From: a virus
Direction: 5' to 3' (one strand)
Virus record (IMG/VR): IMGVR_UViG_3300045988_118866
Location: 74,950-138,949 of that record
DNA length: 64,000 nt
How positions within the stretch are numbered: the first letter of the stretch is position 1; the number at the start of each line of letters is the position of its first letter. The notes below the pieces were generated by a model. That model did not search any database. It saw nothing but the letters and a program-made list of their open reading frames with translations, and was not told the origin of the DNA. A program made the position numbers and the translations under genes. This document shows, piece after piece, positions 12,517 to 60,569 of the stretch.

Positions 12517-15500
12517 ATGAGATCATATTTTAATTGCCATTCACATACTATGTATTCGAATCTCCGTTTACTTTGACTGTATTAATCGACCAACAGCACT
12601 AATTGATAAAGCAATAGAATTAGGATTATCAGGCATTGCCATTACAGACCATGAATGTCTTTCTGCACATATGGAAGTAAATCAATATGCAAAAAAAATA
12701 AGAGAAAAAAATCCTGATTTTACTATTGCTCTTGGTAATGAAATTTATCTCACTGATACAAGAGATAACGGACAAAAATATTACCACTTTATTCTTATTG
12801 CTAAAGATGCTATCGGACATAAAGCATTAAGAGAATTAAGTTCTATTGCTTGGATTCATAGTTATGTTGATAGACGTATGGAACGAGTTCCTACTTTAAA
12901 AAGTGAACTTGAAATGGTAATGGAGCAATATAAAGGGCATGTCATAGCTACAACTGCTTGTATTGGTGGAGAACTTGGTAGTTGTATTTTACCAATGTTT
13001 CAAGCTGAATTAAATAAAGATATTGAAACTCAAACTAAATATTATAATCAAATAATTGATTATATCAATTTTTGTATTAAAGTATTTGGAAAAGATGATT
13101 TTTATCTTGAATGTGCGCCTTCTACAGATGCCGAACAAATAGTGGTAAATCATAAGATTTATCAAATTGCTAAAGCATTTGATTTAAAAATGGTAGTTGG
13201 AACAGACGCGCATTATTTGACTAAAGAAGATAGGCCCATTCATAAAGCATATCTTACTTCTAAACCAGGAGAAAGAGAAGTTGATGATTTCTATAAATTT
13301 ACTTACTTAATGACAAGTGATGAAATTTTTGAATTAATGGAACCTTATGCTAATGATTGGGATAAAGATAATAAAACAGGAAAAGAATTGATAAATTGGA
13401 TTCTTGATAACACTCAAGAGATCCAAAATAAAATTTCTTTTTATTCATTAGAAAGAAAACAAATTATTCCAAAAGTTGAAGTAAAGGATTATAAGAAAGG
13501 ATTCATTCCTTCAAACTGGTTCGATAAATATCCAATTATCTGTTCTTTAATTAATAGCGACAATATTCAAGAACGATATTGGGTAAATGAATGTATTAAA
13601 GCTTTACAAGAAAAGCAACTTTATGATAATAAAAATTATTTAGAGCGACTTGAAATTGAAGCTGATATTATAAAAGACATTGGCGAAAAATTAGATGATT
13701 GTCTTTTTGCTTATTTTAATACTTTCCAACATTATATTAATTTATTTTGGGAATGTGGAAGTATTGTAGGTCCTGGACGTGGTTCAGCGACTGGCTTTTT
13801 ATCTAATTATCTTTTAGGCATTACTCAATTAGACCCAATTCGTTGGGGACTTCCTTATTGGAGATTTTTAAATAAGGAGCGTGCAGAATTGCCTGATATT
13901 GATATTGACCTTGCTCCAAGTAAACGTCCAGCAATTTTCAAAGCAATTAGAAAAGAACGCGGAGAATTGGGATTGGTTCAAGTTGCTACTTTTGGAACGG
14001 AAGGCACTAAACAAAGTATTTTAACCGCTTGTCGCGGATATAGAAGCGAAGAATTTCCAGAAGGAATTGATGTTGATAACGCTCAATATATGTCTTCATT
14101 AATTCCCCAAGAACGTGGATTTTTATGGCCTATTCATGATGTTATTTATGGTAATGAAGAAAAAGACCGTAAACCCGTTCAAGCATTTATTCGAGAAGTA
14201 AACCAATATCCTGGTCTTTTGGATATTATTATATATATTGAAGGAATGGTTAATAAACGTTCTTCTCATGCTTCTGGCGTTATTTTGTATGGCGATGATC
14301 CATTTGATACCGCATCATTTATGAGAACTCCTAGTGGAGATATGATTACTTGTTGGGATCTTCATAAAGCAGAAGCCGCGGGAGATACAAAATATGACTT
14401 CCTTGTAACTGAAGCTTCTGACAAAATTATTACTTGTTATCAATTACTTCTAAAAGATAAGCAAATTCCAGAATTATCTTTACGAGAATTTTATAATAAA
14501 TATATTCATCCAGAAGTGATAGATACAACTGACCAAGCAATTTGGGACCATCTTGCGGCCGGTGACGTATTAGATGTATTCCAATTTTCTACAGGAGTTG
14601 GTTTGGCAATTGCGAAACGTCTTAAGCCCCAAGACCCTATGGAAATGACGGCGGCCAATGCTATGATGCGTCTTATGTCTGAAAAAGGTAAAGAATCACA
14701 GCAAGATAGATATTATCGCATTCAACATTCAGGTATTAAAGTATTTGATGATGAAATGAAGGCTCAACATCTTCCACAAGAATTAATTGATAAGATGCAT
14801 AAGCATTGTGATAAATATTATGGATGTTGTCCTATTCAAGAGCAAATGATGGAAATTCTTATGGATGTAGCTCATTTTACTCTTGGTGAAGCTAATACTG
14901 CGCGTAAGATTGTTGCTAAAAAACAAATGGCTAAAATTCCACAATTGAGAGAGCAGGTACTTAGTAAATTTGATAATGAAAAATCTGCTGAATACTTTTG
15001 GGAAATCGCAGTTGCTCCTCAATTAGGATACGCATTTAGCCTTAATCACTCTCTTCCTTATTCATTTGTAGCAATTCAAATGATTTACTTAGTAATTCAT
15101 TTTAATCCTATTTATTGGGATACTGCTTGCTTAATTGTTAATAGTGGTTCCCTTGAAGATAATAGTGAAGAAGAGATTGTAGATATTTATGCTCCTGAAG
15201 GTGATGATTTAGCTAATGGAGTAACATTTGAAGATCTTCCTGACAAAAGTGGTAAAATCCGCAAAACCGCGGCTACTGATTATGGGAAAATTGCAAAAGC
15301 CATTAGTGACATTCAAAAAGCAGGAATTGAAGTAGGTCTTCCTGATATTAACAAATCTAAATTTGGATTTGCTCCTGATATTGAAAATAATAAAATTCTT
15401 TTCGGATTAAAAGGTATGCTGAATGTTGGTGATGAATTAGTTAATACAATCATTGCTAATCGTCCTTACTCAAATCCTAAAGAATTTTTATATCGTATTA

Positions 15501-16507
15501 AGCCAGGTAAACAAGCTATGATTTCTCTTATTAAAGGCGGAGCTTTTGATAATATGATGGATAGAAAAGAATTAATGATTTGGTATATTTGGGAAACTTG
15601 CGATAAAAAGAAAAGAATTACTCTTCAAAATATGGGCGGACTTATGAAGTATGATCTTCTTCCAGAAGAAAATGAAAATCAAATTATGGCTCGCCGCATT
15701 TATGAATTTAATAGATATTTAAAAGCAATTTGTAAAACTACAAAAAATAACGGTCTATATCAACTTGATGAACGAGCTATTAATTTCTTAGTAGAAATTG
15801 GAGAAGATAATAATATTCAATTTGATGGAACTAATTATTCTTTAAGTGAAAATATTTGGAATGGTATATACCAAAAGTGGATGGATATATTTCGCACTTG
15901 GATTGCTAATAACAAAGATGAAATTTTGAATAATCTAAATATAAAAATATTTAAAGATGATTGGGATAAATACGCTAATAAAAATAATTTATCCGCTTGG
16001 GAAATGGAAGTTCTTTGTTATTATTATCATACTCATGAATTGAACAATATTAACAATGATAAATATGGATTTGTAGATTTTTTTAAGCTTCCAGAAGATC
16101 CAATAATTGACAGAAGTTTTACCAAAGGAAATCATACTATTCATATTTATAAGTTATTTAAAATTTGCGGAACTTGTATTGCTAAAAATAAAACTAAAAG
16201 CACTGTAACCATTCTTACTACTACTGGTCCTGTAGAAGTAAAGTTTAGAAAAGAATATTTTAGTTTATTTGATAAACAAATTTCAGAGCGCGGAGCGGAC
16301 GGAACTAAACATATTGTTGAAAAATCTTGGTTTAATCGCGGAAATATGATTGTAGTCTCTGGAATTCGTAATGGAGATAATTTCATGTCAAAAAAATATG
16401 CTTCTTCTGGAGGACATCAATTATATAAAATTGATGAAATTTTATCCAATGGCGATTTAGTTTTAAAAGATGCTCGTTATCAAGGAGGAATTGAAGAAGA
16501 TGTATAA
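12517..16507 (+). CDS. dnaE: DnaE-type DNA polymerase III alpha subunit (PHP domain + pol core); N-terminus requires a +1 frame change at 12571-12577
   Basis: ATG at 12517 follows RBS aaaggaggg and encodes the PHP start MRSYFNCHSHTMYSNLRLL, then hits TGA. The +1 frame continues as DCINRPTALIDKAIELGLSGIAITDHECLSAHMEV..., matching the PHP consensus (HxH...YS.LDG...ITDH). The core carries LPDIDIDLAP (palm aspartates). No in-frame TAG anywhere in about 1330 codons. Confidence 0.8.
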
Positions 16508-17066
16508 AATTATTGCATTATGTGGAAAATCTGGTGCAGGAAAAGATAGCCTAATGATGGCTACCTTTTCCCACTTAGAGGAATATTTAAATCCTATTAT
16601 AAGCCACACTACGCGTCCGAAGCGTGAAAAAGAAATAGCAGACAAAAATTATCATTTTGTTTCAGATGATCAGTTTTTAACTTTAATTGATGAAAATAAA
16701 ATGTTAGAAACTACTTCTTTTAATAATTGGTATTATGGCACAAGTATTGATAGTTTGTCTGATAGTAAAGTTAATATTGGTGTTTTTAATCCTGAAGGAA
16801 TTATAAGTCTTCTTAAAGATAATCGAATTGAATTAGAAATATATTATATCACTGCGAAAGGAAAAACTCGCTTAATTAGGCAATTAAACAGAGAAGAAAA
16901 TCCTGATGTAGATGAAATTATTAGAAGATATACTGCTGATGAAATTCAATTTCAGCTAATGAATGATATTAAATGCAATATTGTAACAAATGAAACATTA
17001 GAAGATTATAATAATATTGTTAATCTTTTAACTCAAAAAGTTAAACAATGGGCGGAAATGGACTAA
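16500..17066 (+). CDS. guanylate kinase family nucleotide monophosphate kinase
   Basis: P-loop CGKSGAGKDS and the SHTTRPKREKE...YHFV motif characteristic of the guanylate kinase family. ATG at 16500 overlaps the polymerase stop. Confidence 0.7.
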   Translation: MYKIIALCGKSGAGKDSLMMATFSHLEEYLNPIISHTTRPKREKEIADKNYHFVSDDQFLTLIDENKMLETTSFNNWYYGTSIDSLSDSKVNIGVFNPEGIISLLKDNRIELEIYYITAKGKTRLIRQLNREENPDVDEIIRRYTADEIQFQLMNDIKCNIVTNETLEDYNNIVNLLTQKVKQWAEMD

Positions 17067-17152
17067 GATAAATAATTATTTACTAACAAAATCTAAATAT
17101 AGTAGAATATTCTAAAAGAACTACTATATTTAGTTTGGAGGCAAAAAAATTG

Positions 17153-19405
17153 TATATTATTAAACGTGATGGAAGTATAACTCAATTTAATAAAAAGAAA
17201 ATTATTAACGCAATAAATAAAGCATTTATTGAAGTTGATGGTAAACTATATGAAGATGATACTGCGAAAGATATCGCGGAAGACATTGAAAGACAAATAA
17301 ATCATTTCCCTGATGGAAGTGTTGGAGTAGAAGATCTTCAAGATTGGATTGAAGATTATTTAATGCGTTCTGAGCGACGTGATGTTGCTCGTGCTTATAT
17401 CAGATATAGATATAAAAAAGAAGTTGCTCGTAATAAAAAAGATGATTTTATTAAAGCAATTCGTGAAAAGCTCGATGGTAATAATGTAAAAAATCAAAAT
17501 GCTAATGTTGATGAACATTCATTCGGCGGCCGCATAGGTGAAGCAAGTAGTGTTGTCACCAAACAACTTGCACTTGATTACTTACTTTCCCCTATGGCTC
17601 GTAAGAATCATGTTGATAATATGATATATACTCACGATCTTGATTCTTATTATGTCGGCTCTCATAACTGTTTAAGTATTCCTTTTGATAATTTGCTTGC
17701 TAATGGATTTAATACTCGTCAAGCAGATGTTCGTCCTGCGGGTTCAATTAATACAGCATTTCAATTAATTGCTGTTATTTTTCAAATCCAAAGTCTTTGT
17801 TAGTTTGGTGGAGTTAGTGCTACTCACTTAGATTGGACTATGGTTCCTTATGTAAGAAAATCTTTCTTTAAACATTTCAATGATGGCATTGAATTTTTAT
17901 ATGAAGGATTAGATATGAGTAAATATGATGGTTGTTATAGTAAAGAAACTCCTATTGATGATGATTTTTATAAATCATTTCCAAAAGCATATAAATATGC
18001 TATGAAAATGACCACTCGTGAAACTCATCAAGCTGCAGAAGGCCTTTATCATAATCTTAATACTCTACAATCTCGTAGCGGCAACCAATTACCATTTACA
18101 AGCATTAACTATGGCACTTGCACCAAACTTGAAGGTAGAATGGTAACTAAAGCATTATTAGATGTTTCTATCGAAGGTCTCGGTAAACTACATAAAACTT
18201 CAATTTTTCCTTGTGGAATTTTCCAATGTATGAAAGGTGTTAACCGCAAATCAGGTGATCCTAACTATGATTTATATAGATTAGCATTAGAAAGCACCGC
18301 GAGACGCCTTTATCCTAATTACGCAAATGTTGATTGGTCTGGTAATGCGGGATATGATATTAATGATCCTCGCACTTATTTTTCTACAATGGGATGCAGA
18401 ACCGCAAACGGCTGGGATATCAATGGATTCGGTCAGCTTAAAGATGGACGTGGAAATATTTGTCCAGTTACTATTATTCTTCCAACTCTTGCGATGATGG
18501 CCGTTACTCTAAATGAAAATGATAATTGGGATGACTATAAGTCATTATCCCAAGAAGAACGAACTAAAATTGGTGTAGAACGATTTATGTCTTTACTCGA
18601 TAGAAAAATCAATGAAGCACGTATTCAATTAATGGAACGTTTTGAATGGATTTGCTCTCAAGATCCTGGATCCGCGAGGTTTATGTATGAAAATAATGTT
18701 ATGGCAGGTTATGTTCCAGAAGAAGGAATTCGTTCCGCTCTTAAACACGGAACTCTTGCTATTGGTCAGTTAGGTTTGGCTGAAACTCTTCAAATTCTTA
18801 TTGGTAAAGACCACACCACTTCAGAAGGAATGGAATTAGCTAAACGAATTGAACAATTATTTAAAGAAAGATGCGCTGAATACAAAGAAAAATATAAATT
18901 AAATTTTGGAGTTTATTATACGCCCGCAGAAAATCTTTGTTATACAGCTATGACGAAATTTAAAGAAAGATACGGCGAAATTCCTAATGTTAGTGATAAA
19001 GAGTTTTTTACCAATAGTATTCACGTTCCCGTATGGAAAGAAATGAGTCCATTTGAAAAAATTGATATCGAATCTGAGTTAACTGGTTATTCATCCGCAG
19101 GATGTATCACTTACGTCGAACTTGATTCTACTGTAAAACATAATATTGATGCTCTTGAAACTATCGTCAATTATGCGATGGATCACGATATTCCTTATTT
19201 CGCAGTAAATGTTCCTAATGATACTTGCCTTGAATGTGGTTATTGTGATGAATTTAATGATTCCTGTCCTGTATGTGGAAGTCATAATATTCAGCAATTA
19301 CGTCGCGTGACTGGTTATCTTACTGGTAATTATAAAACTGCTTTTAACTGGGGTAAACAAAAAGAAGTTGAAGCAAGAGTAAAACATACGGGAGTATTAG
19401 AATGA
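17153..19405 (+). CDS. nrdD: anaerobic ribonucleoside-triphosphate reductase NrdD (one in-frame TAG)
   Basis: ATP-cone N-terminus (L)YIIKRDGSITQFNKKKIINAI. The ORF-track pieces 17135 and 17840 share a frame and are joined by the TAG at 17801-17803. C-terminal Cys cluster CLECGYC...CPVCG and glycyl-radical motif RRVTGYL. Likely TTG start at 17153, 11 nt after GGAGG. Confidence 0.9.
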
Positions 19406-19854
19406 AATACGCGGGAATTATAAAGAATGATTTGGCTGCGGCGCCCGGGGTGTGTGTATCATTTTTTACACAAGGGTGTCCGCACCGCTGTGAAGGATGC
19501 CAAAATCCTGAAACGTGGGATTTTGATGGTGGTAAAGAATTTACTAATAAAGTATTAGATGAATTAATTACCGCTATTAGCGCAAATAATATTGAACGTA
19601 ATCTTTGTATTATGGGTGGAGAGCCTCTTTGCCCTGAGAATGAGTTTTTAACTAATTTAATTATTACTGAAATCAAAAAAGTATATCCAAATATTAAAAT
19701 ATATGTGTGGACTGGATATGTTTATGATGATTTAAAGAATAGCAATAATATTAGAATTAAAAATATATTAAAAACCGCCGATTACCTAATTGATGGACCA
19801 TATATCCAAAAGGAAAGAGATATCACTTTACCTTTACGCGGTTCCCGCAATTAG
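19402..19854 (+). CDS. nrdG: anaerobic RNR activating protein NrdG (radical SAM)
   Basis: CPHRCEGCQNPETW carries the radical-SAM CxxxCxxC motif. Small size and position immediately after nrdD. Confidence 0.85.
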   Translation: MKYAGIIKNDLAAAPGVCVSFFTQGCPHRCEGCQNPETWDFDGGKEFTNKVLDELITAISANNIERNLCIMGGEPLCPENEFLTNLIITEIKKVYPNIKIYVWTGYVYDDLKNSNNIRIKNILKTADYLIDGPYIQKERDITLPLRGSRN

Positions 19855-19873
19855 AACATTATTAATTTAAAAC

Positions 19874-19902
19874 TTGACAAAAAAGAAAATTTGTGATATA
19901 AT
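19874..19902 (+). promoter_or_regulatory. consensus sigma70/SigA promoter TTGACA-17-TGnTATAAT
   Basis: TTGACA at 19874-19879 and extended -10 TGATATAAT at 19894-19902. Confidence 0.6.
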
Positions 19903-19935
19903 TTTTCTATGAAATAGATAGGAGATTATATCACA

Positions 19936-20469
19936 ATGAATGTTTTTTATACTAATACGATGGGAGAATTATATAATTCTCCTCGTAAATTCGAAGAAGG
20001 AACTATTGCCATTTCTGGTGAAGATCAGAAACAATATTGTTATACTGGAAATGAATGGGTAATGGTAGGAACTACTACTAATAATTTGTCAGATAATTCT
20101 ACTACATTTCAAACTGGAATGAATTTATATGATTTTAATAAAAATATTATGATACAAATGGATCCAATTAATGAAGAAGAATTAAATAAATTAATGGGTA
20201 GTATTAATGAAATGAGTGAATATGGAATGTATTATATGTTATTATGTAAAGATTATAATTATTATACCATTTTTCACAAAAATATTCCTCCAATTATTTC
20301 AACTGGTTCTGTAGCGAGTATGGTAATTATACTTTGTCAAGAATTAGGAAGTATTGTTGGTTGGGAAAAAAATAATGATAATGCTATTGAAATTTGGATA
20401 AATATTGATAATGAATCTTATTGTTTTTATTTATTCCAATATGATGCTGGTATTGTGGAGTGTAATTAA
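19936..20469 (+). CDS. hypothetical protein
   Basis: 177-aa intact ORF following the strong promoter. Confidence 0.5.
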   Translation: MNVFYTNTMGELYNSPRKFEEGTIAISGEDQKQYCYTGNEWVMVGTTTNNLSDNSTTFQTGMNLYDFNKNIMIQMDPINEEELNKLMGSINEMSEYGMYYMLLCKDYNYYTIFHKNIPPIISTGSVASMVIILCQELGSIVGWEKNNDNAIEIWINIDNESYCFYLFQYDAGIVECN

Positions 20470-20730
20470 ATGATTGTTTGTAATATTAATTTATTTTCAA
20501 TGGAACAAAATGTTTTTAAAACCTATGATGATGGAATGGCAGTAAGTATTGGAACTTGTAGTATTCCTGATCTTCCAAATGTTTTAGTAGCATCTTGTTA
20601 TAAAAATGATACTGATACTATACGTTTATATGGTATTGAAGATTTTATTAATGAATTAATTCCAAAAATTTATGAAAGTAATAGTTTAAATTATTCCAAT
20701 AGAAAAGAAATTAAAGTTGAGGTAGGTTAA
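20470..20730 (+). CDS. hypothetical protein
   Basis: 86-aa ORF, translationally coupled to the upstream gene. Confidence 0.45.
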   Translation: MIVCNINLFSMEQNVFKTYDDGMAVSIGTCSIPDLPNVLVASCYKNDTDTIRLYGIEDFINELIPKIYESNSLNYSNRKEIKVEVG

Positions 20731-20978
20731 TGAATAAGTATCTTGTAAGTGCTACAGAAGTTTATCGTGTAGATAATGAGGAAAGCGCGGCCGCGCTTAT
20801 TGACGAGGCTAAGGCTGAAACTAAATATATTTTAGCTAAGTATAGTTCAGTGAAGAAAGAAAAAAAGGCTAAGGGTGAAATTGTCGATGAATGGTATCAA
20901 GTCACTCTTGTTAAAAAATTCAATGATGAAAAAGATCCTATTAGTAATATTGATGTAAATTATGAGGTAAGCTTTTAA
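20730..20978 (+). CDS. hypothetical protein
   Basis: 82-aa ORF with ATGA overlap to the upstream gene. Confidence 0.45.
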   Translation: MNKYLVSATEVYRVDNEESAAALIDEAKAETKYILAKYSSVKKEKKAKGEIVDEWYQVTLVKKFNDEKDPISNIDVNYEVSF

Positions 20979-21502
20979 TGAAGTTTGAACGAGTAAGCAA
21001 ATATCCTGACGCGGTTTTGCCAGTAAGAAAGACCGTTAAATCAGCAGGTTATGATTTTACAGTTGCGGAAGATATTATAATCCCGTCTTATTCAGATCAA
21101 GTACTTGAGATGGTCCGATGGGGAAGAGGAGGACATACATATACTCTAACAGAGATGGCTAATTTGTCTAAAGAATTAAAGACTAAACCCACTCTTGTGC
21201 CTACTGGAATTAAATGTGAATTAAATGATAATACATATCTTGAATTATCAGTTCGCAGTTCTTGTCCTTTAAAATATTGGCTTATTCTTGCTAATGGCGT
21301 TGGGATTATTGACGCAGATTACTATAATAATCCTGATAATGAAGGACATATTTATTTTCAGATGATTAATTTATCTCCATTTGATATTCAACTTCATAAA
21401 GGTGATGTTATTGGTCAAGGTATTATTAAACCTTATTTAATCACCGAAGACGATAATGCTTCTGGTGACCGTCTTGGAGGATTTGGCTCAACTTCAAAGT
21501 AA
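20978..21502 (+). CDS. dut: dUTP diphosphatase (trimeric dUTPase)
   Basis: Motifs SAGYDF, GVGIIDADY and KGDVIGQGII match dUTPase motifs 1, 3 and 4. Confidence 0.85.
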   Translation: MKFERVSKYPDAVLPVRKTVKSAGYDFTVAEDIIIPSYSDQVLEMVRWGRGGHTYTLTEMANLSKELKTKPTLVPTGIKCELNDNTYLELSVRSSCPLKYWLILANGVGIIDADYYNNPDNEGHIYFQMINLSPFDIQLHKGDVIGQGIIKPYLITEDDNASGDRLGGFGSTSK

Positions 21503-21534
21503 TTACCTCAAACCTAAAGAAAGGAGGTAATTAC

Positions 21535-22047
21535 TTGAATATCCTCTTTTTAGATTTATCTACTAAATCTACTGGTTATTGTGTATCTAATAGTGAGGGA
21601 GAAATGTTAGATTATGGACTGTTAACCGCGATTTCCTCTAATAATTTAGATAGAATACAAAAAATACAAGATTAGATTATTGAATTAGTAAAAAAATATA
21701 ATATAGAGAAGATAGTAGCGGAAGATGTTCATCCTGAAACTTATGGATATTCTGATACTTCACGTTTATTAATGTGGCTTCAAGGTGCAGTAATGTTGGG
21801 CGCACATGGAGTTAATTCTTCATTTACTTCCAAAACATTAGAGCTGATGTAGGCAAGTGAATGGCGCAAAAAACTTGGAATTAAAACTGGTCGCAGTATT
21901 AAACGTGAAACTCTCAAACAAGCCGATATTGATTTTGTATAGCAAAAATATAATATAAAAGCCAATGATGATATATGTGATGCTATATGTTTATATACTG
22001 CATATTTCACGAAAGAAAGTTCCAATAATGATTTTAATTGGGAGTAA
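21535..22047 (+). CDS. RuvC-like Holliday junction resolvase (three in-frame TAG codons)
   Basis: TTG start at 21535 directly after RBS aggagg. The read-through frame encodes NILFLDLSTKSTGYCV (RuvC motif I), IVAEDV and DAICLY (catalytic acidic residues). TAGs at 21673, 21850 and 21940; TAA at 22045. Absent from the ORF track because of the TAGs. Confidence 0.75.
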
Positions 22048-22124
22048 TAAATAGGCCTTAAATAAATAATCCTCCTTCCCTTCTTTTAAAATATATTAGA
22101 AGTTAATGGAAGGAGGTATTTTTT

Positions 22125-22553
22125 ATGTCTACTTTTATTGCCTAGCATTTTATAGAAATATTTTTTGGTCTTATTTCTGCTGGCCTCTTAGCCTTTTGTA
22201 GATATATTTATACTCAAATGAAAATGTATCAAAAATTGGCAGAAGAAAAGAAAGATGAACAGTTAGAAGAATTAATTGAAGAGCATATAGCTCCAATCAA
22301 AGAAGATCTAAATAATTTAAGATCTTTCGTATTGGAAGAAAAGAAAATTAGTGAGAGATATATTGAAATAATTCTTGCTTCTTATAGATTTAGATTAATT
22401 CAATTATGTCAAAGTTTCTTAAAACAAGGATATATGACTTCAGGACAGTATGAATAGTTAGTCGAATTCTTTAAAGTATATGCAGGTTTAGGTGGAAATG
22501 GATAGGCTAAAGAGTACTATGAAAGGACTTTAAAATTACCGCTCAAAGACTAA
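22125..22553 (+). CDS. membrane protein with one N-terminal TM helix (holin-like candidate)
   Basis: ATG at 22125 follows RBS ggagg. TAGs at 22143, 22443 and 22509; TAA at 22551. Hydrophobic segment FIEIFFGLISAGLLAFCRYIY followed by a charged coiled region. Confidence 0.4.
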
Positions 22554-22555
22554 TA

Positions 22556-23445: not shown

Positions 23446-23458
23446 TTAAAAAACCTCC

Positions 23459-51700: not shown

Positions 51701-52240
51701 TCCATAATTACCACTAACTATACCGAGCGTTTCAAGCCAGGCACGAAAATCGGCGCGCAGCCCCAACCGCGTAAATCCCTATTGCTCATCAGTAAAAGTA
51801 ATTCCACCTTTTAGAGTAATCTCAATTTCTTTTTCACTACCATTGGCTAAAATACTCCAAACCTCTTTATTATTATCTTTAGCAACAAAAAAGTTTCCAG
51901 TTAAATCAATAAAAGTATTAAAAGGATTAACAAAATTATATGGCTTATCTTCATTTTTATCAGTCTTTTTACCAACAATAAATTTAGTGCTATTATAGTC
52001 TCCTTTTGGAATCTATACATACACTTTATCATCTTTGTTGTAAGTGGTTATTTGGGAATAAGCATAAAATTCCGCATAAGATTCGTTTTTAACCTTATAC
52101 TTACCAATAAGTTTATCAGTCGCGTCAATAATAGTACATTCAATAGTGCTATCAAATTTAACTTTATCAACACTTGAATTAGCAATAATACTCATTGCTT
52201 GACATAAACTTTCTTGAATATTTAGTGCGTTATCAGCCAA
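48791..52240 (-). CDS. large tail structural protein (1149 codons) immediately downstream of tape measure
   Basis: TTG at 52240, 6 nt after RBS aaaggaggg, with TGA upstream. Scanned open to the TAA at 48791. Contains pieces 52013, 51278, 50492 and 49967. A local GC-rich stretch at 51721-51780 encodes LGLRADFRAWLETLGI. Confidence 0.55.
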
Positions 52241-52322
52241 AATAATCCCTCCTTTTACTCATTACTCTATAATTTTCTAAAAAATTAATTAGTTTTATTC
52301 AATATAATTACCCAAAAAGAAA

Positions 52323-52362
52323 AAGGGTGAAGCCTATAAGACCTCACCCTTAATTTTATTTT
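52323..52362. terminator. hairpin agggtga-agcctataagacc-tcaccct with flanking A/T runs after tape measure gene
   Basis: 7-8 bp GC stem followed by TAATTTTATTTT. Confidence 0.5.
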
Positions 52363-52448
52363 CTATTGGCATACTGAGAAGCTACATTAACTAATGTATT
52401 AAATGCTTCTTGAATTTCGTATCTATCAGTAGCGTTCGGGAAACTAGC

Positions 52449-55400
52449 TTCAATTCTAACATTCTATTCTAATGTTCCATCTTGAGAACTAACAGTAAAT
52501 CCAGAAGATGAAAGAGTAGAAATTTGCTGACTATTGAAATCTAATTGTTTAGCAATCTATCTAACTAATTGGATAGAAGCTAACATATTTTCAGTATCAT
52601 CAGCATTAAGAACTAATTCTTTCTAATGTAAGAATGCTAACTTGCCATCATTGTTCCAAGTACCAGTATAACCACCACTTCTAAATCCGACTAATTGTTT
52701 CCAAACACTATCAGGAATATCAGTGAAATGACTATAAGTTTTTCCATTATAATTAATAGGCAATGCCAATCCTTTACGATAAAAAGCATCAACACGAGCA
52801 GTAGTAGCAGCTTCAACGTCATATCCTCCCCTAATAACGTCTTCACGATTCTGATAATATTCATTATATTTATCAGAACCATATTCAACTTGGCCCATTT
52901 TTTCAGACCAATCAACTCTTGTTAAAGAATTACTACTTCCACTACCAAATCCGCTCTAAGCACGCAATGTCGCTTGAATAGCGTTCAAAAGCTCTTCATA
53001 AGCTCTAATAGTATCAAGCAACTACTAACGATGTTGCGCCCAAGCTTCAGTCGCACTACGGACAGAACTTAACTCATCTTCAAGAGCAGGAATAACTCTA
53101 TTAGATACTTCTTGATAAAGTTTATTACTTTCATCAGTGACATCTTTAACTTTCTATTGAGTATCTTTTAAATCATCACCAACAATTTTACTAATTTCAT
53201 CCATACTATCTTGCCATTCTTTAAATGTATCATTAATAATATTAGTGTTTTCAGTAATAGTATCTTTCCAACTATTACTATTATCTTTAATAATATCAAA
53301 AGAATTTACCCAAGCATCTTGAACTACTCTGCTATCTTCTTCTTGCGCTTTCGCATAAAGGTTTCCAGCAGTAGTAATTAAATCAGTATATTGTTGAATT
53401 ACTAATGCGCGTTCTTGTTGATATGTAGTCTCGCGGTAAACGGCATCTTCCGCGGCTTTCTAATCGAGTTCCGCGAGCTTTTCAGCCAACTCTTTCTCAT
53501 ATTGAAGTTTTTGTTGACCATATTTATTTGTCGCATTAAGACGAATATTATACAAGTCATTTTCCGCGTCTGCTAAAGCCTATTGCGCATCATTTACTTT
53601 CTCTTGGTCTGCGGTATACACATAACCAAAATTACCCTCATTATCACGTTGTAGTCTAACAGTAGATTTTGCGTTTTGAGCTTCTTCTAATGCGATTTGC
53701 GCTTCAAGCACTTTATATTTAGCCTAAGCAATTTCTAATTCTAATTGACTTAATTTATCTTTATCTCTTAACTACTCAATTTCTTTAGTAAATTGCTGAT
53801 ATCTATTTTTAGCCGCTTGATTATTCGTCTTATCAATAGCCTAATTAACATTATTAAGTAGTTTATTCATTTCATAAATCTAATTAGTTTTTGTTAAATA
53901 TTCATCTTGATAAGAAGACATTCTATCTAAAGCATCATTTAAAGCATCCCAGCCAGAAATATTAAAATTATTACCATTAATACTTACTTTAGTGGTACTT
54001 AATTGCTTATTCATTTCATCAGCAGCTTGCTCCATTTTCGTAGTAAGAATTTCTTTTAATGCTTCGCCATATTCTTCAGCTTTAGAAAGCATATCCTCTT
54101 CCGCTTCATCGAACGCAGCTAATATAGCATCGTAATTCTTTTGAAGCACTTCGCGCTCAGCTTCGTCAGTCGAATTAGCTAAGGCCGCGGCCGCTGCATC
54201 ACGTTCACGCTTCAAACTCTCATACCATTGTTTAGAAGCATCAAAATTATTTTTCTTAGTCTAAGCAGTTCCATTCAAAACTGATAAAACTTTATCATAA
54301 TCTTTATCTTTACCTAACAAAGTAATAATAGAACGATAATGATCCAATACACTAGTCAAATGCTCCATATGATCTGTATATTTAGACAATTCATCATTTG
54401 CCAAATCTATGGTATTACCATAGTATTCAAGCATTTCTTTATCTAAATCCTACAAAGCATTTAAATTATCTAATGTGTTATCATATACATCTTGTAAACC
54501 TTCAATATAATTTTCTTGAGAAATTTCTCCATTAGAATAAGCATTGTTTAACTGGCCATAGAAATTTTCATAAGTTCCTAATTGACTAATTACTGGATCA
54601 AATTGACCTTGTAAATATCCAAGAGCTTCAGCAGCTTTATAAATATTATCACTTAATTTGTCAAAATAATATTCTAATTTCTTAGTATCATTTTCGTCTA
54701 ATTGAACCTTTACTTCAACTTCATAAGCAAGCATTTGATAATTTCTGTCTTGCCACTCGTTTATTTTATCTTGAATATCATCAGTTAATTCTTCGATTAA
54801 ATCTCTTGTATCCTCATATTGACTAATGGCATCTTTTAACTCATCAATTTTCTTTTGAATCGGATCTAAAGTTGCTTCTTTATAAGCATCTTGAGCATCT
54901 TTTGTAGAGAAAGAATTTGCTTTGTCCTAAGCAGCCGCAAGCTAATTATAAAGTTTAGTCATCTAATCAGTATAATTAGAAATATCACCATCTTCATCAA
55001 ATGTGAAAGTAATTCCAGCTTTTTTCGCAGCTTGCTACAAAGTAGCTTTATCTGTCTTTAAATAACCCTATGCTTCTTTTTGCTTCTGCTTTAATAAATC
55101 AACTTCTTTTAAAGTTAACTTATTACTTTTAGCCATCGCATCAAGATGAGCTTTACCCCAAAGTCTATCCGCTGATTTATTAGCTTTATCTAAAGCACGA
55201 GTAGTATCGTTGATACTATCAGTTATTTCTTTATACCTATCAACAATATCAGATTTTTTGGACTTACTAATTTTAGAAGGTTTAGAAGAAGAACCTCCAC
55301 TTGATTTCTTCCCCGATGAAGTAGAAGAAGGAGATACTGGTCCTGAGCCTGTAAAGCTAACTTTAGGAGGAGTATTTTTTGCTCCATTAGTAGCAATTTG

Positions 55401-58400
55401 CGCGACTTGAATTGTTTCTGGGACATCAGTATATCCAGATATAGAAGATGTCTAAGTTGAGGAGATTATATTATGATAATCATCATATTCAATATCATCT
55501 AATTTAGTTAATACTTTTGGCTTTCTGCTTGTAATAGTCTTTTCACTTACATCAACATCAGCAGTTAGTCCCATTTGGCTAAGAGTACTATTCATTTCTT
55601 CAACAGACATATTAGTAGCCATAGCCATTTCATTTAATGCATTAACCCAATTATTAGCAGCGTCAGTTCCTCCAGATAGAATTTCTTCTAATCCTTTACC
55701 CGTTAAGTCTTGACCTTCTGCAAGTTTAGCAGAAATTTCATCTAGACCATTTAGAATAATTTCTTTATTATTTTGAAAATTACGGATATATTCTGGTAAA
55801 ATACCTTCATCTTCATTATCACCATAAGTCATGGTAAAATTTTTTTCCGCATCATTAATTTCCATTAAATCAACTGTGGTCTTTGCTACAGCGATACCCA
55901 ATTGGTTAATGGCATCAGTACTACCTTGAGCAGCCTAATTAATTAATTCTAAGTTATCAGCAGAATCGAAAAATTCATCAGGTAATTCTAAATCTTCTGA
56001 AGCACCAGTTAAATCAGCAATAGTTTTAGTTAAATCTTGGATTGTATCAGTATATTCTTTAGTTAATTTTTCTTTATCATCGATTTGACTTTTCTTTAAA
56101 ACAGAATTCCAATTTTCCCAATTGTCACTTAAGTCCTTAACACCATTATTCATTCGCTGATTGGCAATAGCAAGTTTAGTCGCTTCAACTTCAGTTAAGT
56201 CATAAGCTTTCTAAATTCGTTTAGCCTAATCTTCAATATCATCAGCGTCTAACCCATATTTCTAAACAGCATTTTCAGTTAAAGAAGCGACTTCCTACTG
56301 AGCTTTTTCTTCTTCACTTAAAGTATTAACTAAATCTCTTATAATATCTTCTTGCTCGCTCGCTGTTTGATTTACATCAAACATTGCTTCAAGGGCTTGT
56401 CTTGTAGTTTCATCTTCTAAATCCATAGTTTGAACCAAATCATTTAAAAGAGAAATGTCTACATCAGAATTAATATTAGAAGAAATATCTTCACCTAAAG
56501 TATTATTTAAATCTTCTCTAGTAGATTTTTCGGCATCATTTTTAGCCTAAGCACTAGCAATTGCTTCAGCCATTTCTTCAACAGAAATGGTTACTTTATT
56601 ACCATCATCATTATAATACTCAAAAACGCGATTATCTCCACTACCTTGAACTGCATTACTTGTTAAATTATAATTATATCCAGTGGCATCTAAATATTGT
56701 TGCCAATAATCTTTTACTGTATTATTATTTCTTCCAGCCCACTTGGTAAAATCAGTCTTTAAGCCATTTAAAGTAATTCTCTTTTGTTTGGCATAAGCAG
56801 AATCAAAAGTATTAGTAAAATCATTTGCCTATTCATCTGTTATATTATCGCCAAGAACTTGTTTAGATAATAATTTACCAGTATTATCAACCTAATTTCC
56901 TGTTTCTTTAGCATTTCTACCTAATTCTTTTAAATTATCAGAGCATCCCTTTAAAGCGTTAGTAAAATCATTTAAAGAAGTGCCAAGACTTATATTATCA
57001 AATTGCTTAGCATAATCTTCAAAAATTCCATCAATATTTTGAATACCATCAGGAGAATTTATAGTATTTACAATTGCATCAACCATTTCTCCTGCCACTT
57101 TTTTATTTTCCGCATTAGATTCGCCATTAGTGCTATATTTAGATACCACAGAATAAACCTAATTAACCGCTTCTTTTCTATTGGACTAATATTCCATCTA
57201 ACTAACCGCGGCCTAACTGGCCAAAGCAGCTGCCTAAGCGTTATTAGATTTATCACGTTTATCGGCTATAAAAGAGTCAATAGCTTCTTGATTAAATGTA
57301 CCATCTTTATTAAAAAGATTGTCCATTTTAGCTAATTCAGGATAAGTTTCAAGAATATTCCAAATCTATTCATTTACATTTGATAAGGCTTCTTTCCACT
57401 CATCAGTCCCTTTAGTACATTCATTTAATGTATCTATCGCAGTCTAATATTGATCGAAAGCGGAAATAATATTATTTAATTCAGTTTTTGTCTATTGAGA
57501 TTTTTCTTTCAAATTCTCAGCAGCTTCAGTAGCTCTTTGAAGACTTTCTGCTTCAGCATTTGCTGCCTTAGAAACAGCATATAAAGTTCCAATAACTACA
57601 GCACTAATAGCAACAGTAGCAAGAAAAGTTTTATTAGTAACTAATTTAATTGCTCTATTTTTTATTTCTGCTAAAGTATTTTTTTCTACAGCAAGAGTTT
57701 CTTCTTTTTTCTTAGCAGTAAGAATTGTCTAAATAACTATAGCAGCTTCTTCCGTATCAGTGATACCTTTTTGAGCTAATTCATTAAGAACTTTTACTCT
57801 AGTATTTTCATCAGTTGCTAAAGTGTCCTTATTTTTCATTATAATGTCAGTAACCGTTGCAATTACATTTTCACCATAGGTCTAATTTAATTTTTCCATT
57901 GCAGCTTTAGAAGCAAGAATACTTCCTATAAAACCAGACGGACCAAGAACACTACTTACAGTCTAAAAACTATAAACTAAATTTGGTAAAATTAAACCTA
58001 ACTAAGTAAATGTAGCTAATAGTTTATCTCCAAAAGATATATCGGTATCATTTAAAGTATTTATTAATCCTTTAATAGAAGTTAATGCCATACCAAAATT
58101 AGCTATTCCATTAATAGAAGCCGAAAAGGCTGAACCAAGAGTCTAGGATTCGCCCTGCGCGGTTTTAAACCAATCTCCTAACGATTTTGTCGCATTAATT
58201 AATCTCTATTCATCTTCAGTTAAATCTGCAGTGGCATTACCTAAATTATTATAAGAATCAACCATAGCCATAGCCATTTTCATAGCATCTTGAGTTTTAA
58301 ATCCACACTATTCTAATGTTGTAGTTAATCTTTTAATAGAATTAGTATCATCTAATCCAGTTAAAGCATCTCTAAAATCTTGAAGAGTAACATCTCCTTT

Positions 58401-60569
58401 GTTTAAAAGAGTTATTAAATCTCTAATTTTCTAATTATTTGTTTCAAATCCTAAATCTTGCTTATTTATATCTTTCTCTTTTTCATATAACTAATTTAAA
58501 ATTTCTCTAATTTTAGCTAATCCTTCAATCTAGAACTGTTTTTCATCAACAATTGGGATAGAAGATAATTTATAAACTAAATTAGCATATTCTTGAGCTG
58601 CTTTTTTAGCTCCTTCAAAAGTGGTAATTGCAGTTTCTGTTTTATAGGCACTATTAGGATCATCCTAATAAGTTCTATGAGCCATCATTTCTGCCATAAT
58701 AGAATAACGCTTATTTAATGTTTCCATTTCTTTCTAAGCTAATTCTACTTCTTCACCACGTTTAATAACGCTTTGTACTAATAAATTATGCTAATCTAAT
58801 AAGGTTGAAGCAATTTGTTTTTCTTTTTCACTTAACTTATCAGCATTCTCAATAAGCATTAACTAAGCGGTAGATTGTTCTGAATAAGCCATATTCATTG
58901 CTTTTCCAGAAGTAGTATTTTTATTTCCTGATAAAATAAGACTTTCATTAGCTTGCTTTTTTAATTCTTCAATATCATTTTTAATTGTCCCAAATTTTAA
59001 TCCTAAATTATAAAACCAGTTATCAAAAGAAGTAGTTAATTCTTTTGAAAAAACTTTTGACATTGTAGAACCAATTAAAAGTAACATACCAGGCATTCCA
59101 CCTAAGCTCTATGATACATTACCTATTATGTCTAAAACAGAGCTAAATCCATTTGTTAAATCAATAAAGAAATTATCATCTAATAAAGCAGCATATATTT
59201 TTTGTGCTGAAGCTTTTACTCTATCTCCCGCAGCTTCCCAAGACTCAGCATAAATATCCGCCTGTTCTTGAAGAGATCCATCAGCACCCTATGCTCTGGC
59301 AAGATTTTCTTTATAATAATCAAAATGATCCATCAAAGCAATTAATTGAGTATATTGACGAACACCCGCAACCTATTGTGCTAAAGCTACTTGCTAATCT
59401 TTATCAATACTCTACCATTTATTACCCATTTCTTCGATGATATTATTCATATCTTTTAATTTGCCATTAGAGTCTTTAATATTAATTCCAACTTTTTCAA
59501 GAGCTTGTGAATATTGATTTAATGTAGTGCCATCTTCAAGAGTTTCACCAAGCTTTAAACCTTGAATACGAGCAAAAATAGTTTTTAAAGCAGTACCTAC
59601 AATATCTTCACTTTGACGAGTAGTAGCAGTAATAGTAGCTAAGGCCGCGGCCGCGTTATCAAAACTTAAACCAATCGTATTGGCAACAGCAGCAAACTTT
59701 TCGAGACCGCCAGCAATTTCATCAGAGCTGGATGAGGTATCTGCACCTAAGCGTACCATAGCATCAGCATAATGCTCTAATGACTAACTCCCGTTATAAA
59801 AGTTATTCCAAACAGCAGTCATTTGATCTGAAACTATTTCAGCACTTTCACGAGCTACATTTGCCATTTTAATGGTAATATCAGTGCGTTCTTTTACCTA
59901 TTCATCATTTAAACCCTACTGATAATAAATTAAAGCAGCGTCAGTATATTCAGTAGTAGTTGTGCTTAAAGCTTTGGCCGCTATATTTGCCTATTTAGCA
60001 AATTTAGCCATCTAATCAGTAGTCTATCCAGTAACAATACGAATATTATTTAAAGATTCGTTTAAATCTTGAGCGTATCCATAAGCAGTCTATAAAGACC
60101 CCATAAACCCATGTAAAATACTAGAGGAAATTTGCCAACGCGCGGTATTTGCTAAAGTAGTCCCAAATTCTTTTAATAAAGAATTAGTTCTTCTTAAAGG
60201 TAATTCCGCCTGTGTAATAGAAGTTGCTAAATTAGCAAATGCTTTTTCACCTTCTGGACCCAATAAGCTTAAACTTTTCTGATATTCTTTAAGGGAAACT
60301 CCACCCTATTTTAAAGTCTAATTAAATTTACTAAGATCTAATTTACCTGTATTAACATCAGTTGCTTGCTATAACTAAGTTTTTAATTGTGCAGTTAATT
60401 GAATTGCGCCCTATATATCTTTAGAAATTCCTAAACTAGCATCAGTTTTTATAGAATTTGCCATTAGATTATTTAGCTAATTTTGTAAATCCTATAATTG
60501 CTGTTGAGCCTATTTAGAATCAGCAGTAAATTGTAAATTAACCTAATAACTATTTAATTGTTTAGCCAT
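52449..60569 (-). CDS. tail tape measure protein, 2706 codons with about 70 in-frame TAG
   Basis: ATG at 60569, 5 nt after RBS gaaaggagat, with TAA upstream. I scanned the frame manually with no TAA/TGA until the TGA at 52449. Eight ORF-track pieces from 59412..59759 down to 52623..52898 lie in this frame. The sequence is coiled-coil-rich (e.g. EYEKELAEKLAELD, QAAEDAVYRETTYQQERAL), typical of TMPs. Confidence 0.7.

What the first reader, a model, noticed from the sequence alone, without database searches (positions are those of the whole stretch)
12517..60569. Strong early/late asymmetry in TAG usage
The polymerase (about 1330 codons) has no TAG. Primase, NrdG, kinase, dUTPase and the AAA ATPase have none. 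DnaB has 2 in 511 codons and NrdD 1 in about 750. The tape-measure ORF has roughly 70 in 2706 by manual count, and the 2564-codon fibre ORF and every other late gene are similarly dense. This is about a tenfold difference between modules of one genome. It is the pattern expected if read-through of TAG, through a phage suppressor tRNA and/or inactivation of host RF1, is used as a timing switch for late gene expression.
Basis: partly seen in the sequence, partly recalled or inferred. Interest (0 to 1): 0.75.

Follow-up and report, generated by a model that had tools for sequence, protein, structure and literature searches.

The report
Amber-recoded gut phage, early genes TAG-poor
This is part of a roughly 195 kb gut phage that reads the stop codon TAG as glutamine and uses it rarely in early and replication genes but heavily in tail, head and lysis genes, a pattern and a timing-switch idea already published for such phages.

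Summary
With TAA and TGA as the only stops, the + strand replication module (53-22553) has 19 in-frame TAG in 7,043 codons (2.7 per 1000, 7.6% of Gln-type codons). The - strand tail module (22587-64000) has 208 in 13,174 codons (15.8 per 1000, 35%). That is about sixfold, not tenfold (Fisher p about 1e-19). Other synonymous codon ratios and off-frame TAG counts do not differ between modules. TAG means Gln: in near-identical relatives, 36 of 37 changed TAG sites are CAG or CAA. Late genes are not uniformly dense. The tail-tube-like protein has 1 TAG, one 553-codon gene has 1, and two capsid-region genes in relatives have none. DnaB, the RecJ-like protein, NrdD and NrdG carry real in-frame TAGs. 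The window has no tRNA. Relatives of about 94% nucleotide identity carry a tRNA(CUA), followed by an HDV-like element, about 54 kb upstream on the early/middle strand. Recovered early-region genes, which by inferred order lie before that tRNA, are nearly TAG-free. All of this matches the published code-switch model for TAG-recoded phages (Borges et al.; Kienbeck et al.). Contigs of this lineage carry the naming style of that study's scaffolds. The finding is already known. Separately, the polymerase gene carries a prfB-type CTT TGA C +1 frameshift.

The parts
53..22553 (+). Early/middle replication and nucleotide-metabolism module. It holds 26 called genes and 19 in-frame TAG in 7,043 codons.
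   Evidence: Gene table. Pfam matches: AAA_24, DnaB, DHH/RecJ_OB, UvrD-like helicase, Pol III alpha, guanylate kinase, NrdG, dUTPase.
12517..16507 (+). DNA polymerase III alpha (PHP domain) with 0 TAG. ORF1 is 12517-12576 and the rest lies in the +1 frame from 12578.
   Evidence: Pfam matches PHP, DNA_pol3_alpha, finger and HHH_6. Frame analysis. The uninterrupted polymerase genes of relatives have 0 TAG down to 43% identity, except one with a single TAG.
12571..12577 (+). CTT TGA C heptamer, the same as the prfB +1 frameshift site, at codons 19-20 of the polymerase gene.
   Evidence: Seen in the window, in 6 relatives, and in 1 relative with CTT TGA T. ORF1 of the frameshift alleles against an in-frame allele shows 10 synonymous and 0 nonsynonymous codon differences.
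3194..4726 (+). DnaB-like helicase with 2 in-frame TAG (codons 23 and 59), both inside the N-terminal domain match.
6687..8435 (+). DHH/RecJ-like nuclease with 6 in-frame TAG, the most TAG-rich replication-module gene.
17135..19405 (+). NrdD anaerobic ribonucleotide reductase with 1 TAG. It aligns with Q of the QYGG motif in PDB 9d3x and with H in 8p23.
19402..19896 (+). NrdG activase with 1 TAG at codon 151 of 164.
22553..22600 (.). Perfect 24-bp hairpin between an A-run and a T-run, where the two modules converge. Read as a bidirectional terminator.
   Evidence: Fold energy -29.3 kcal/mol.
22587..64000 (-). Late tail and structural module. It holds 26 called genes, 25 of them with TAG, and 208 TAG in 13,174 codons.
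   Evidence: PHROG matches to tail and virion structural proteins.
52356..60590 (-). Tape measure protein of 2,744 codons with 72 TAG (26 per 1000).
   Evidence: PF10145 PhageMin_Tail at E = 8e-28.
30630..38324 (-). Its function was not confirmed here.
48791..52240 (-). Structural ORF of 1,149 codons with 23 TAG, more than its CAA and CAG together (53% of its Gln-type codons).
62642..63625 (-). Virion structural protein (phrog_2729), tail-tube-like by its position. It has 1 TAG in 327 codons and is a TAG-poor late gene.
38443..40104 (-). Late ORF with only 1 TAG in 553 codons.
25072..25518 (-). Small late ORF with 8 TAG in 148 codons, the densest in the window.

Best explanation
The window is a 64 kb stretch of a roughly 195 kb gut phage with a tape-measure-bearing long tail. 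The phage translates TAG as glutamine (genetic code 15). Decoding most likely rests on a phage tRNA with anticodon CUA. That tRNA lies outside the window, about 54 kb upstream on the long early/middle transcription strand. In relatives it is followed directly by an HDV-like self-cleaving element.

Genes that must be translated before or while this tRNA accumulates cannot afford TAG, so they have almost none. This covers the early region near the sigma-70-type promoters and the polymerase. Middle and replication genes tolerate a few. Terminase, portal, tape measure, fibres, an endolysin-like gene and an endonuclease-like gene use TAG for a third or more of their glutamines.

The asymmetry is therefore a footprint of when each gene is translated relative to suppressor supply. 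Expression level adds a second influence: two capsid-region genes in relatives and the tail-tube-like protein avoid TAG.

**Shown:** the counts, TAG = Gln, the tRNA(CUA) in relatives, and the gradient.

**Inferred:** that the window's own genome carries the tRNA, that timing is the cause, and that TAG actively delays late proteins.
For: - Allowing TAG as sense nearly doubles long-ORF coding, from 10,199 to 19,537 aa.
- Other synonymous ratios are equal between modules, and off-frame TAG is similar.
- TAG aligns with CAG/CAA at 36 of 37 changed sites in relatives of 95% identity or more. At 60-80% identity, Q is the commonest partner, followed by E and K.
- The NrdD TAG aligns with Q of QYGG.
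- The uninterrupted polymerase genes of relatives are TAG-free down to 43% identity, except one with a single TAG.
- TAG density is graded along about 142 kb recovered from relatives. Early region: 0.5-0.7 per 1000. Middle: 1.8-5.3. Terminase, head and tail blocks: 11.5-22.6.
- The endolysin-like gene on the early strand has 8 TAG in 433 codons.
- The endonuclease-like gene has 11 TAG against 3 CAA.
- tRNA(CUA) is found in L395/L396, L393, L407-L409 and L383. Rfam's tRNA model scores it at 57.8 bits.
- L395 is 94.6% identical to L376, and L376 is 94% identical to the flank of the window's near-identical contig.
- The published model is described.
Against: - No tRNA was found in the window or in about 142 kb of its closest relatives. 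The tRNA(CUA) comes from relatives of about 94% identity, and roughly 38 kb of the genome was never seen.
- Essential replication genes carry in-frame TAG inside conserved domains, so read-through is already needed during replication.
- Two capsid-region genes in relatives have 0 TAG, and the tail-tube-like protein has 1. 'Late' alone therefore does not predict TAG density.
- TAG positions are spread evenly along late genes, with the first TAG at a median of codon 76. This shows no design for early termination.
- No expression data exist. 'Early', 'middle' and 'late' are inferred from gene content, promoters and strand.
Confidence: 0.75

Rival explanations
1. There is no regulatory role. TAG is simply a slow or leaky glutamine codon. 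Selection removes it from genes that need fast or accurate translation (polymerase, capsid-region genes, tail-tube-like protein). Drift lets it accumulate in very long, low-copy proteins such as the tape measure and fibres.
For: - Two capsid-region genes in relatives have 0 TAG and prefer CAG.
- The tail-tube-like protein has 1 TAG in 327 codons, and gene 38443-40104 has 1 in 553.
- The late module is heterogeneous (p = 0.01).
- TAG positions are uniform within genes.
- TAG and CAG/CAA interchange freely among near-identical relatives.
- The +4 context bias suggests that decoding competes with termination.
Against: - Dozens of small early genes with no obvious need for high expression are also TAG-free.
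- The endolysin-like and endonuclease-like genes are strongly enriched although they sit on the early strand.
- The recovered TAG-free early blocks all fall on the far side of the tRNA gene by inferred order, which fits timing.
Confidence: 0.3
2. The modules have different evolutionary origins. The replication module was acquired from a standard-code phage of the SPbeta/YorL type and has simply not yet picked up TAG codons.
For: - The polymerase and YorF-like genes resemble SPbeta-group genes (38% identity; PF27337).
- The 5' end of the polymerase gene is mosaic between otherwise 99%-identical relatives.
- The early region has a different G+C content, 37-43% against 30%.
Against: - G+C and all other synonymous ratios are the same in the window's two modules.
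- The uninterrupted polymerase genes stay TAG-free down to 43% identity (one has a single TAG), while neighbouring replication genes carry TAG. This shows long-maintained avoidance rather than recent arrival.
Confidence: 0.05
3. Read-through depends on the phage inactivating host RF1, with or without a suppressor tRNA.
For: Nothing direct. In the window's code-15 gene calls, a TAG close to a gene's end is rare, so TAG seems little used as a stop. That would suit a cell without RF1 activity.
Against: - No release-factor or anti-RF gene was recognised in the proteins scanned, though those scans covered only part of the proteome and were not aimed at such functions.
- A canonical tRNA(CUA) is present in relatives.
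- The depletion of T after TAG suggests that release-factor competition persists.
Confidence: 0.1
4. The TAG-interrupted late ORFs are pseudogenes or assembly artefacts in a standard-code genome.
For: None.
Against: - A 2,744-codon frame carries 72 TAG and no TAA or TGA.
- Intact Pfam and PHROG domains span the TAGs.
- The same TAG sites are conserved in many independent assemblies.
Confidence: 0.01

Closest known systems
TAG-recoded (code 15) gut phages and the 'code switch' model of Borges et al. (bioRxiv 10.1101/2021.08.26.457843). From my own knowledge, earlier work by Ivanova 2014, Devoto 2019 and Yutin 2021 belongs here too.
   Same: - In-frame TAG read as Gln.
- Structural and lysis genes recoded, with variable recoding of replication genes.
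- Suppressor tRNA(CUA) present.
- Low G+C content.
- Genome size near 200 kb, like their Sapphire and Jade clades.
- Recoded genes spread over several modules.
- A strongly recoded endonuclease-like gene.
- Contig names of this lineage (SRR1747065_scaffold_11; aot2015...Peru...scaffold_11) follow the naming style of that study's scaffolds.
   Different: Nothing essential. Clade membership (Sapphire or another) was not tested by TerL phylogeny. No RF2 gene or tRNA synthetase was recognised in the proteins scanned, though no dedicated search was made.
Phage Phass-1 and the Phassvirus-like group (PMC10607447; GenBank OQ749652).
   Same: - A human-gut phage with a very long tape measure (about 3,150 aa), a Pol III alpha polymerase, TAG = Gln and suppressor tRNA(CTA) genes.
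- In that paper, TerL and the tape measure protein are recoded.
- It is the closest complete GenBank phage by the capsid-region protein, at 50% amino-acid identity.
   Different: - Phass-1 is 136 kb, against about 195 kb here.
- Capsid-region protein identity is only 50%.
- Polymerase identity is no higher than the 38-39% of the SPbeta-group top hits.
- It is a different genus or family.
tRNA-associated theta (HDV-like) ribozymes (Kienbeck et al. 2024, PMC10879173).
   Same: - In relatives L393 and L395, the tRNA(CUA) is followed within 1-2 nt by GGTGCT...ACCTCCTCGCGGTAGCACTGGG...
- That sequence can form an HDV-like P1 (with a G.U pair), P3/L3, P1.1 and P2.
- An RNA-ligase gene lies in the same region, an association the paper reports.
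   Different: - The fold was drawn by eye only.
- There is no Rfam match.
- The sequence was not found in the supplementary text files held for that paper.
- It lies outside the window.
prfB (RF2) autoregulatory +1 frameshift. This applies to the side observation only.
   Same: - The identical heptamer CTT TGA C.
- A short ORF1 of 19 codons.
- The functional protein lies in the +1 frame.
- The Leu-Asp junction matches the in-frame alleles.
   Different: - There is no Shine-Dalgarno-like stimulator upstream.
- The gene is a phage replicative polymerase, not a release factor.

Membership tests
Code 15 (TAG to Gln) recoded phage | Conserved genes are interrupted by in-frame TAG only, and coding density rises sharply when TAG is read as sense. 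| tested here: met
   Long-ORF coding rises from 10,199 to 19,537 aa. The 2,744-codon tape-measure ORF has 72 TAG and no other stop. Protein domains span the TAGs.
Code 15 (TAG to Gln) recoded phage | TAG positions align with glutamine in homologues. | tested here: met
   Of 37 changed sites in relatives at 95% identity or more, 36 are CAG or CAA. Q is the commonest partner at 60-80% identity. The NrdD TAG aligns with Q of QYGG.
Code 15 (TAG to Gln) recoded phage | A phage-encoded suppressor tRNA with anticodon CUA. This is common but not universal: about 40% of recoded genomes in Borges et al. | tested here: met
   Absent from the window. Present at a syntenic site in four relative lineages, one of them about 94% identical at the nucleotide level to the window's lineage. 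Its presence in the window's own genome is inferred.
Code 15 (TAG to Gln) recoded phage | Recoded codons are concentrated in structural and lysis genes, and early genes use the standard code. | tested here: met
   The endolysin-like gene is TAG-rich although it lies on the early strand.
Code 15 (TAG to Gln) recoded phage | Experimental proof of Gln insertion at TAG by proteomics. | not testable with these tools
   Shown for crAss-like phages only (PMC9523058, listed).
Sapphire clade of Borges et al. | Placement in the clade by large-terminase phylogeny with at least 95% bootstrap support. | not tested
   Support is indirect only: a genome of about 195-199 kb, few genes with TAG in early regions, and the contig naming.
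Phassvirus-like group (PMC10607447) | Shared signature proteins (TerL, major capsid, tape measure, Pol III alpha) that form one monophyletic group. | tested here: inconclusive
   The capsid-region protein is 50% identical to Phass-1, the best complete GenBank phage. The polymerase's best GenBank hits are SPbeta-group phages at 38%. No tree was built.
Theta (HDV-like) ribozyme | A nested double-pseudoknot HDV fold with a catalytic C in J4/2, and a cleavage site within 5 nt of a tRNA 3' end. | tested here: inconclusive
   The position fits: it starts 1-2 nt after the tRNA(CUA) in L393 and L395. The helices were drawn by eye. There was no Rfam hit and no match in the paper's held supplements.
prfB-type programmed +1 frameshift | A CUU UGA C shift site that joins a short ORF1 to the main ORF in the +1 frame. 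| tested here: met
   Window 12571-12577. Present in 7 further relatives in three allele families from independent samples. The consensus CTT_TGA_C is given in PMC3711429.
prfB-type programmed +1 frameshift | A Shine-Dalgarno-like stimulator a few nucleotides upstream of the shift site. | tested here: not met
   The upstream sequence is TCGAATCTCCGTTTA and contains no GGAGG-like element.
prfB-type programmed +1 frameshift | ORF1 is kept under purifying selection as part of the protein. | tested here: met
   Frameshift alleles L005 and L025 against in-frame allele L003 show 10 synonymous and 0 nonsynonymous codon differences. The HxH motif is kept in all alleles.

The most novel reading that the evidence does not exclude
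The genome may combine two stop-codon-dependent controls.

The first is the graded use of TAG, which appears keyed to the position of genes relative to the suppressor tRNA gene.

The second concerns the replicative polymerase. In about a fifth of the lineages sampled, including this window, it can only be made by an RF2-sensitive CUU UGA C +1 frameshift at codon 20. If that shift responds to release-factor availability in the infected cell, polymerase supply would be coupled to the state of the termination machinery that the phage itself perturbs.

No such frameshift in a phage Pol III alpha gene turned up in the one targeted literature search or in the two recoding papers I read.
Probability: 0.2. 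Interest if true: 0.65.

Novelty: already known. Interest (0 to 1): 0.22.

Why it matters
- As it stands, this is another example of a published phenomenon. It gives clean numbers for one lineage.
- It also adds three small refinements. Recovered early-region genes, inferred to lie before the suppressor tRNA, are almost TAG-free. Two capsid-region genes in relatives and the tail-tube-like protein avoid TAG. The base after TAG is biased against the strong termination context.
- Together these suggest that suppressor supply and efficiency shape TAG use, rather than a clean on/off gate.
- The practical lesson is that this window must be annotated with table 15.
- The polymerase frameshift deserves its own follow-up.

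Tried and rejected
- **tRNA searches.** ARAGORN and Rfam on the window found no tRNA and no RNA family.
- **Walking outwards.** I used all 8 viral-collection scans and the metagenome scan. The close relatives showed no tRNA in about 142 kb. Only the genome-collection scan, two protein searches and contig look-ups reached the tRNA array.
- **GenBank phages.** There is no close relative by DNA. The polymerase's best protein hits are SPbeta-group phages at 38%.
- **crAss-like identity.** I considered and rejected this. The window has a Pol III alpha polymerase, a tape measure and SPbeta-like genes.
- **Composition as the cause.** Rejected.
- **TAG clustering near 5' ends.** Not seen. Positions are uniform.
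- **The HDV-like element.** I looked for it in the supplements of Kienbeck et al. and found nothing.
- **Clade of SRR1747065_scaffold_11.** I looked in the supplements of Borges et al., but none are held.
- **Not pursued.** The frame breaks next to TAG in the polymerase genes of distant relatives L039 and L040. The third protein search, which could have tied the tRNA to a contig carrying an identical window protein.

Full report
**1. What the window is**

The window has 30.4% G+C. Counting only TAA and TGA as stops nearly doubles the sequence held in stop-to-stop frames of at least 150 codons, from 10,199 to 19,537 aa. The longest frame grows from 1,328 to 2,745 codons.

The + strand from 53 to 22553 encodes a replication and nucleotide-metabolism module:
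- a winged-helix regulator
- a YorF-like protein
- an AAA_24 ATPase
- DnaB
- a DHH/RecJ-like nuclease
- a protein with a Phage_lysozyme2 domain
- a UvrD/RecD-like helicase
- Pol III alpha with a PHP domain
- guanylate kinase
- NrdD and NrdG
- dUTPase

The - strand from 22587 to 64000 encodes tail and other virion proteins (PHROG matches). One of them is a 2,744-codon tape measure with the PF10145 core. The two modules converge on a perfect 24-bp hairpin flanked by an A-run and a T-run at 22553-22600.

**2. The observation**

I called genes with TAA and TGA as the only stops.

| Module | TAG | Codons | TAG per 1000 | TAG share of TAG+CAA+CAG | Genes with TAG |
|---|---|---|---|---|---|
| + strand 53-22553 | 19 | 7,043 | 2.7 | 7.6% | 9 of 26 |
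| - strand 22587-64000 | 208 | 13,174 | 15.8 | 35% | 25 of 26 |

- Fisher tests give p of about 1e-20 (TAG against other codons) and 1e-19 (TAG against CAA/CAG).
- A per-gene Mann-Whitney test gives p = 2e-4.
- The polymerase has 49 CAA/CAG and no TAG. At the late-module rate that has a probability of 6e-10. Even at the rate of the other early genes it is 0.008.

This is not a composition effect.
- The CAG/CAA, GAG/GAA, AAG/AAA and TTG/TTA ratios are the same in both modules.
- CAA+CAG density is similar, 33 against 29 per 1000.
- TAG in the two other reading frames differs only 1.2 to 1.6-fold.

The following points are not.
- The fold difference is about 6, not 10.
- NrdG has one TAG and the RecJ-like gene has six.
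- Late genes range from 1.8 to 54 TAG per 1000 codons.

**3. TAG means glutamine**

I aligned every window gene, codon by codon, with genes from relatives' loci.
- At 95% protein identity or more, 745 of 782 aligned window TAG sites are also TAG. Of the 37 that changed, 24 are CAG, 12 are CAA and 1 is TCG.
- At 60-80% identity, the commonest partners are CAA (66) and CAG (27), followed by Glu and Lys codons.
- These counts are not independent events, because many relatives are close to one another.
- The single TAG of NrdD aligns with the Q of the QYGG motif in one solved NrdD and with H in another.

**4. The rest of the genome, read from relatives**

The polymerase has near-identical relatives in IMG/VR contigs of up to 197 kb. 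In one contig of 197,006 bp the gene is split across the two ends, so that contig is circular or permuted.

I walked outwards from both window edges along this contig.
- The late strand continues rightwards through head genes, portal and terminase. It starts about 14 kb beyond window position 64000.
- Next to it, and transcribed the other way, lies a region of 37-43% G+C. It holds many small genes behind strong TTGACA-N17-TATAAT promoters.
- This early region is the head of one very long + strand array of roughly 140 kb. The array ends with the window's replication module.

TAG density along this array:

| Block | TAG per 1000 codons |
|---|---|
| Early blocks 2 and 3 | 0.5 and 0.7 |
| Three middle blocks left of the window | 1.8, 5.2 and 5.3 |
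| The window's + strand (two blocks) | 3.1 and 2.8 |
| Terminase block (late strand) | 15.0 |
| Head block (late strand) | 11.5 |
| Three tail blocks (late strand) | 12.5 to 22.6 |

The first early block gave 4.7 per 1000. All six of its TAGs fall in two doubtful ORFs that span promoter regions.

Strand alone does not explain the pattern.
- An endolysin-like gene, followed by a membrane-protein gene, lies on the early strand. It has 8 TAG in 433 codons.
- An endonuclease-like gene there has 11 TAG against 3 CAA.
- On the late strand, two adjacent genes in the head block (capsid-like by position; not run through a family search) have no TAG and prefer CAG.

**5. The suppressor tRNA**

The window has no tRNA, and the loci fetched up to that point had no tRNA(CUA).

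A scan of bacterial genome bins found phage contigs mis-binned in MAGs. They are about 94% identical in nucleotide sequence to the left flank of the window's lineage. Further steps from there reached a tRNA array.

A tRNA with anticodon CUA sits at the same relative position in every lineage recovered.
- L395/L396: Rfam's tRNA model scores 57.8 bits against a threshold of 29.
- L393.
- L407, L408 and L409.
- The distant relative L383.

The tRNA has an unpaired first position (1:72) and G73. From my own knowledge, these features recall tRNA-Gln.

L395 is 94.6% identical to the contig that links it to the window's lineage. Assuming gene order is conserved, the tRNA lies about 54 kb upstream of window position 1, on the + strand.

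Genes directly downstream of it, a cluster of Mtd_N fibre-like genes, already use TAG. The early regions recovered, which by inferred order lie before it, do not. About 38 kb between those early regions and the tRNA array was not recovered.

In L393 and L395 the tRNA is followed after 1-2 nt by a conserved element. By eye it folds like an HDV-type ribozyme. This matches the tRNA-associated theta ribozymes reported next to amber suppressors in gut phages. I could not confirm it with a model or in that paper's held supplements.

**6. How it most likely works**

Shown:
- The asymmetry itself.
- The meaning of TAG.
- A cognate phage tRNA in close relatives.
- A gradient that follows the inferred order of expression and the functional class of the gene.

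Inferred:
- Early genes avoid TAG because they are translated before the suppressor accumulates.
- Late genes are free to use TAG, and some (lysis, endonuclease) may be held back by it.

Three results argue against a clean switch.
- DnaB, the RecJ-like protein, NrdD and NrdG need read-through inside conserved domains.
- Two capsid-region genes in relatives and the tail-tube-like protein avoid TAG.
- The base after TAG is enriched for A (47% against 33% after CAA) and depleted for T (15% against 25%), with p = 8e-4. This suggests that decoding still competes with termination.

A mixed picture fits best: a timing constraint on early genes plus an efficiency cost everywhere. I found nothing that points to RF1 inactivation.

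**7. Comparison with what is known**

The pattern and its interpretation are those of Borges et al..
- They carry suppressor tRNAs.
- They are proposed to switch code part-way through infection.
- Their Sapphire and Jade clades have genomes near 200 kb, with recoded genes in several modules.

Relatives found here carry names such as SRR1747065_scaffold_11 and aot2015...Peru...scaffold_11. The second carries a protein identical to window 445-1389. These names follow the naming style of that study's scaffolds.

The closest complete GenBank phage by the capsid-region protein is Phass-1, at 50% identity. It is a described TAG-recoded phage with a long tape measure, a Pol III alpha polymerase and three suppressor tRNAs.

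The finding is therefore already known. At most, the window is one more member of a described kind.

**8. Side observation worth its own look**

The polymerase gene starts at ATG 12517, behind a strong ribosome-binding site. It reads MRSYFNCHSHTMYSNLRLL and then meets TGA. The PHP domain continues in the +1 frame.

The junction is CTT TGA C. This is exactly the consensus shift site of the release factor 2 gene.
- The same arrangement occurs in 6 relatives, and in a seventh with CTT TGA T. They fall into three allele families from different samples.
- 33 other relatives read CTT GAC or TTA GAT in frame at this point.
- ORF1 of the frameshift alleles differs from an in-frame allele by 10 synonymous and 0 nonsynonymous codons. 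It is therefore still being translated as part of the protein.
- There is no Shine-Dalgarno-like stimulator upstream.

I read this as a probable programmed +1 frameshift. One targeted literature search and two recoding papers I read did not show one for a phage Pol III alpha gene. Any link to the TAG recoding is speculation.

Noticed in passing
window 12517-12577 (shift site at 12571-12577): The Pol III alpha gene needs a +1 frameshift at CTT TGA C, the prfB (RF2) shift heptamer, after a 19-codon ORF1 that holds the PHP HxH motif. The site is conserved in the window and 7 relatives (three allele families), while 33 other relatives are in frame. ORF1 is under purifying selection (10 synonymous, 0 nonsynonymous differences). 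There is no SD-like stimulator upstream.
   Followed up: partly
L395 1273-1425; L393 81-215; L407 2879-2953; L383 5199-5273: A suppressor tRNA(CUA) sits at a syntenic site in relatives. L393 and L395 have quite different tRNA bodies between identical flanks. Directly 3' of the tRNA lies a conserved element that can be drawn as an HDV-like (theta-type) ribozyme.
   Followed up: partly
L388 7939-8078 and about 6100-6952: One tRNA (Rfam 59.9 bits) carries a 68-nt insert in its anticodon loop. The insert itself has acceptor-, D- and T-arm-like segments. A tRNA-Leu(UAA) nearby has a 765-nt intron with an ORF that contains 3 TAG.
   Followed up: no
L243 1-5400; L310 10001-20306; L331 10001-20774: An early region of 37-43% G+C, against 30% elsewhere. 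It has many small genes behind repeated strong TTGACA-N17-TATAAT promoters, prefers CAG and is essentially free of TAG. It diverges from the start of the late module.
   Followed up: partly
L056 3995-4912 and 4930-6036: Two adjacent head-block genes (capsid-like by position; no family search run) have no TAG and prefer CAG over CAA, unlike the rest of the late module.
   Followed up: partly
L102 6930-8628; window 8489-9328: An endolysin-like gene (Phage_lysozyme2 domain, 8 TAG in 433 codons) plus a membrane-protein gene lie on the early strand. A second Phage_lysozyme2-domain gene inside the window has no TAG.
   Followed up: partly
L395 15055-15933: An endonuclease-like ORF inside the tRNA array uses TAG for 11 of its 14 glutamine-type codons, the highest share seen.
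   Followed up: no
window 22553-22600: A perfect 24-bp hairpin between A8 and T8 runs (-29.3 kcal/mol), where the + and - strand modules converge. It looks like a bidirectional terminator.
   Followed up: partly
late-strand genes of the window: The base after in-frame TAG is A in 47% and T in 15% of cases, against 33% and 25% after CAA (chi-square p = 8e-4). This is a bias away from the strong UAG-U termination context.
   Followed up: partly
L376 1401-5543 (also L387 and L388 10001-14138): A DUF2828/DUF7788 gene is followed by an 827-832-aa gene with a major-vault-protein shoulder domain. Both have about 42% G+C and almost only CAG for glutamine, which suggests a recently acquired cassette.
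   Followed up: no
L039 and L040, just upstream of position 10001: In polymerase genes of distant relatives (46-47% identity), the reading frame breaks next to a TAG inside the HNH...YSN motif region. These genes also carry long insertions. This was not resolved.
   Followed up: no
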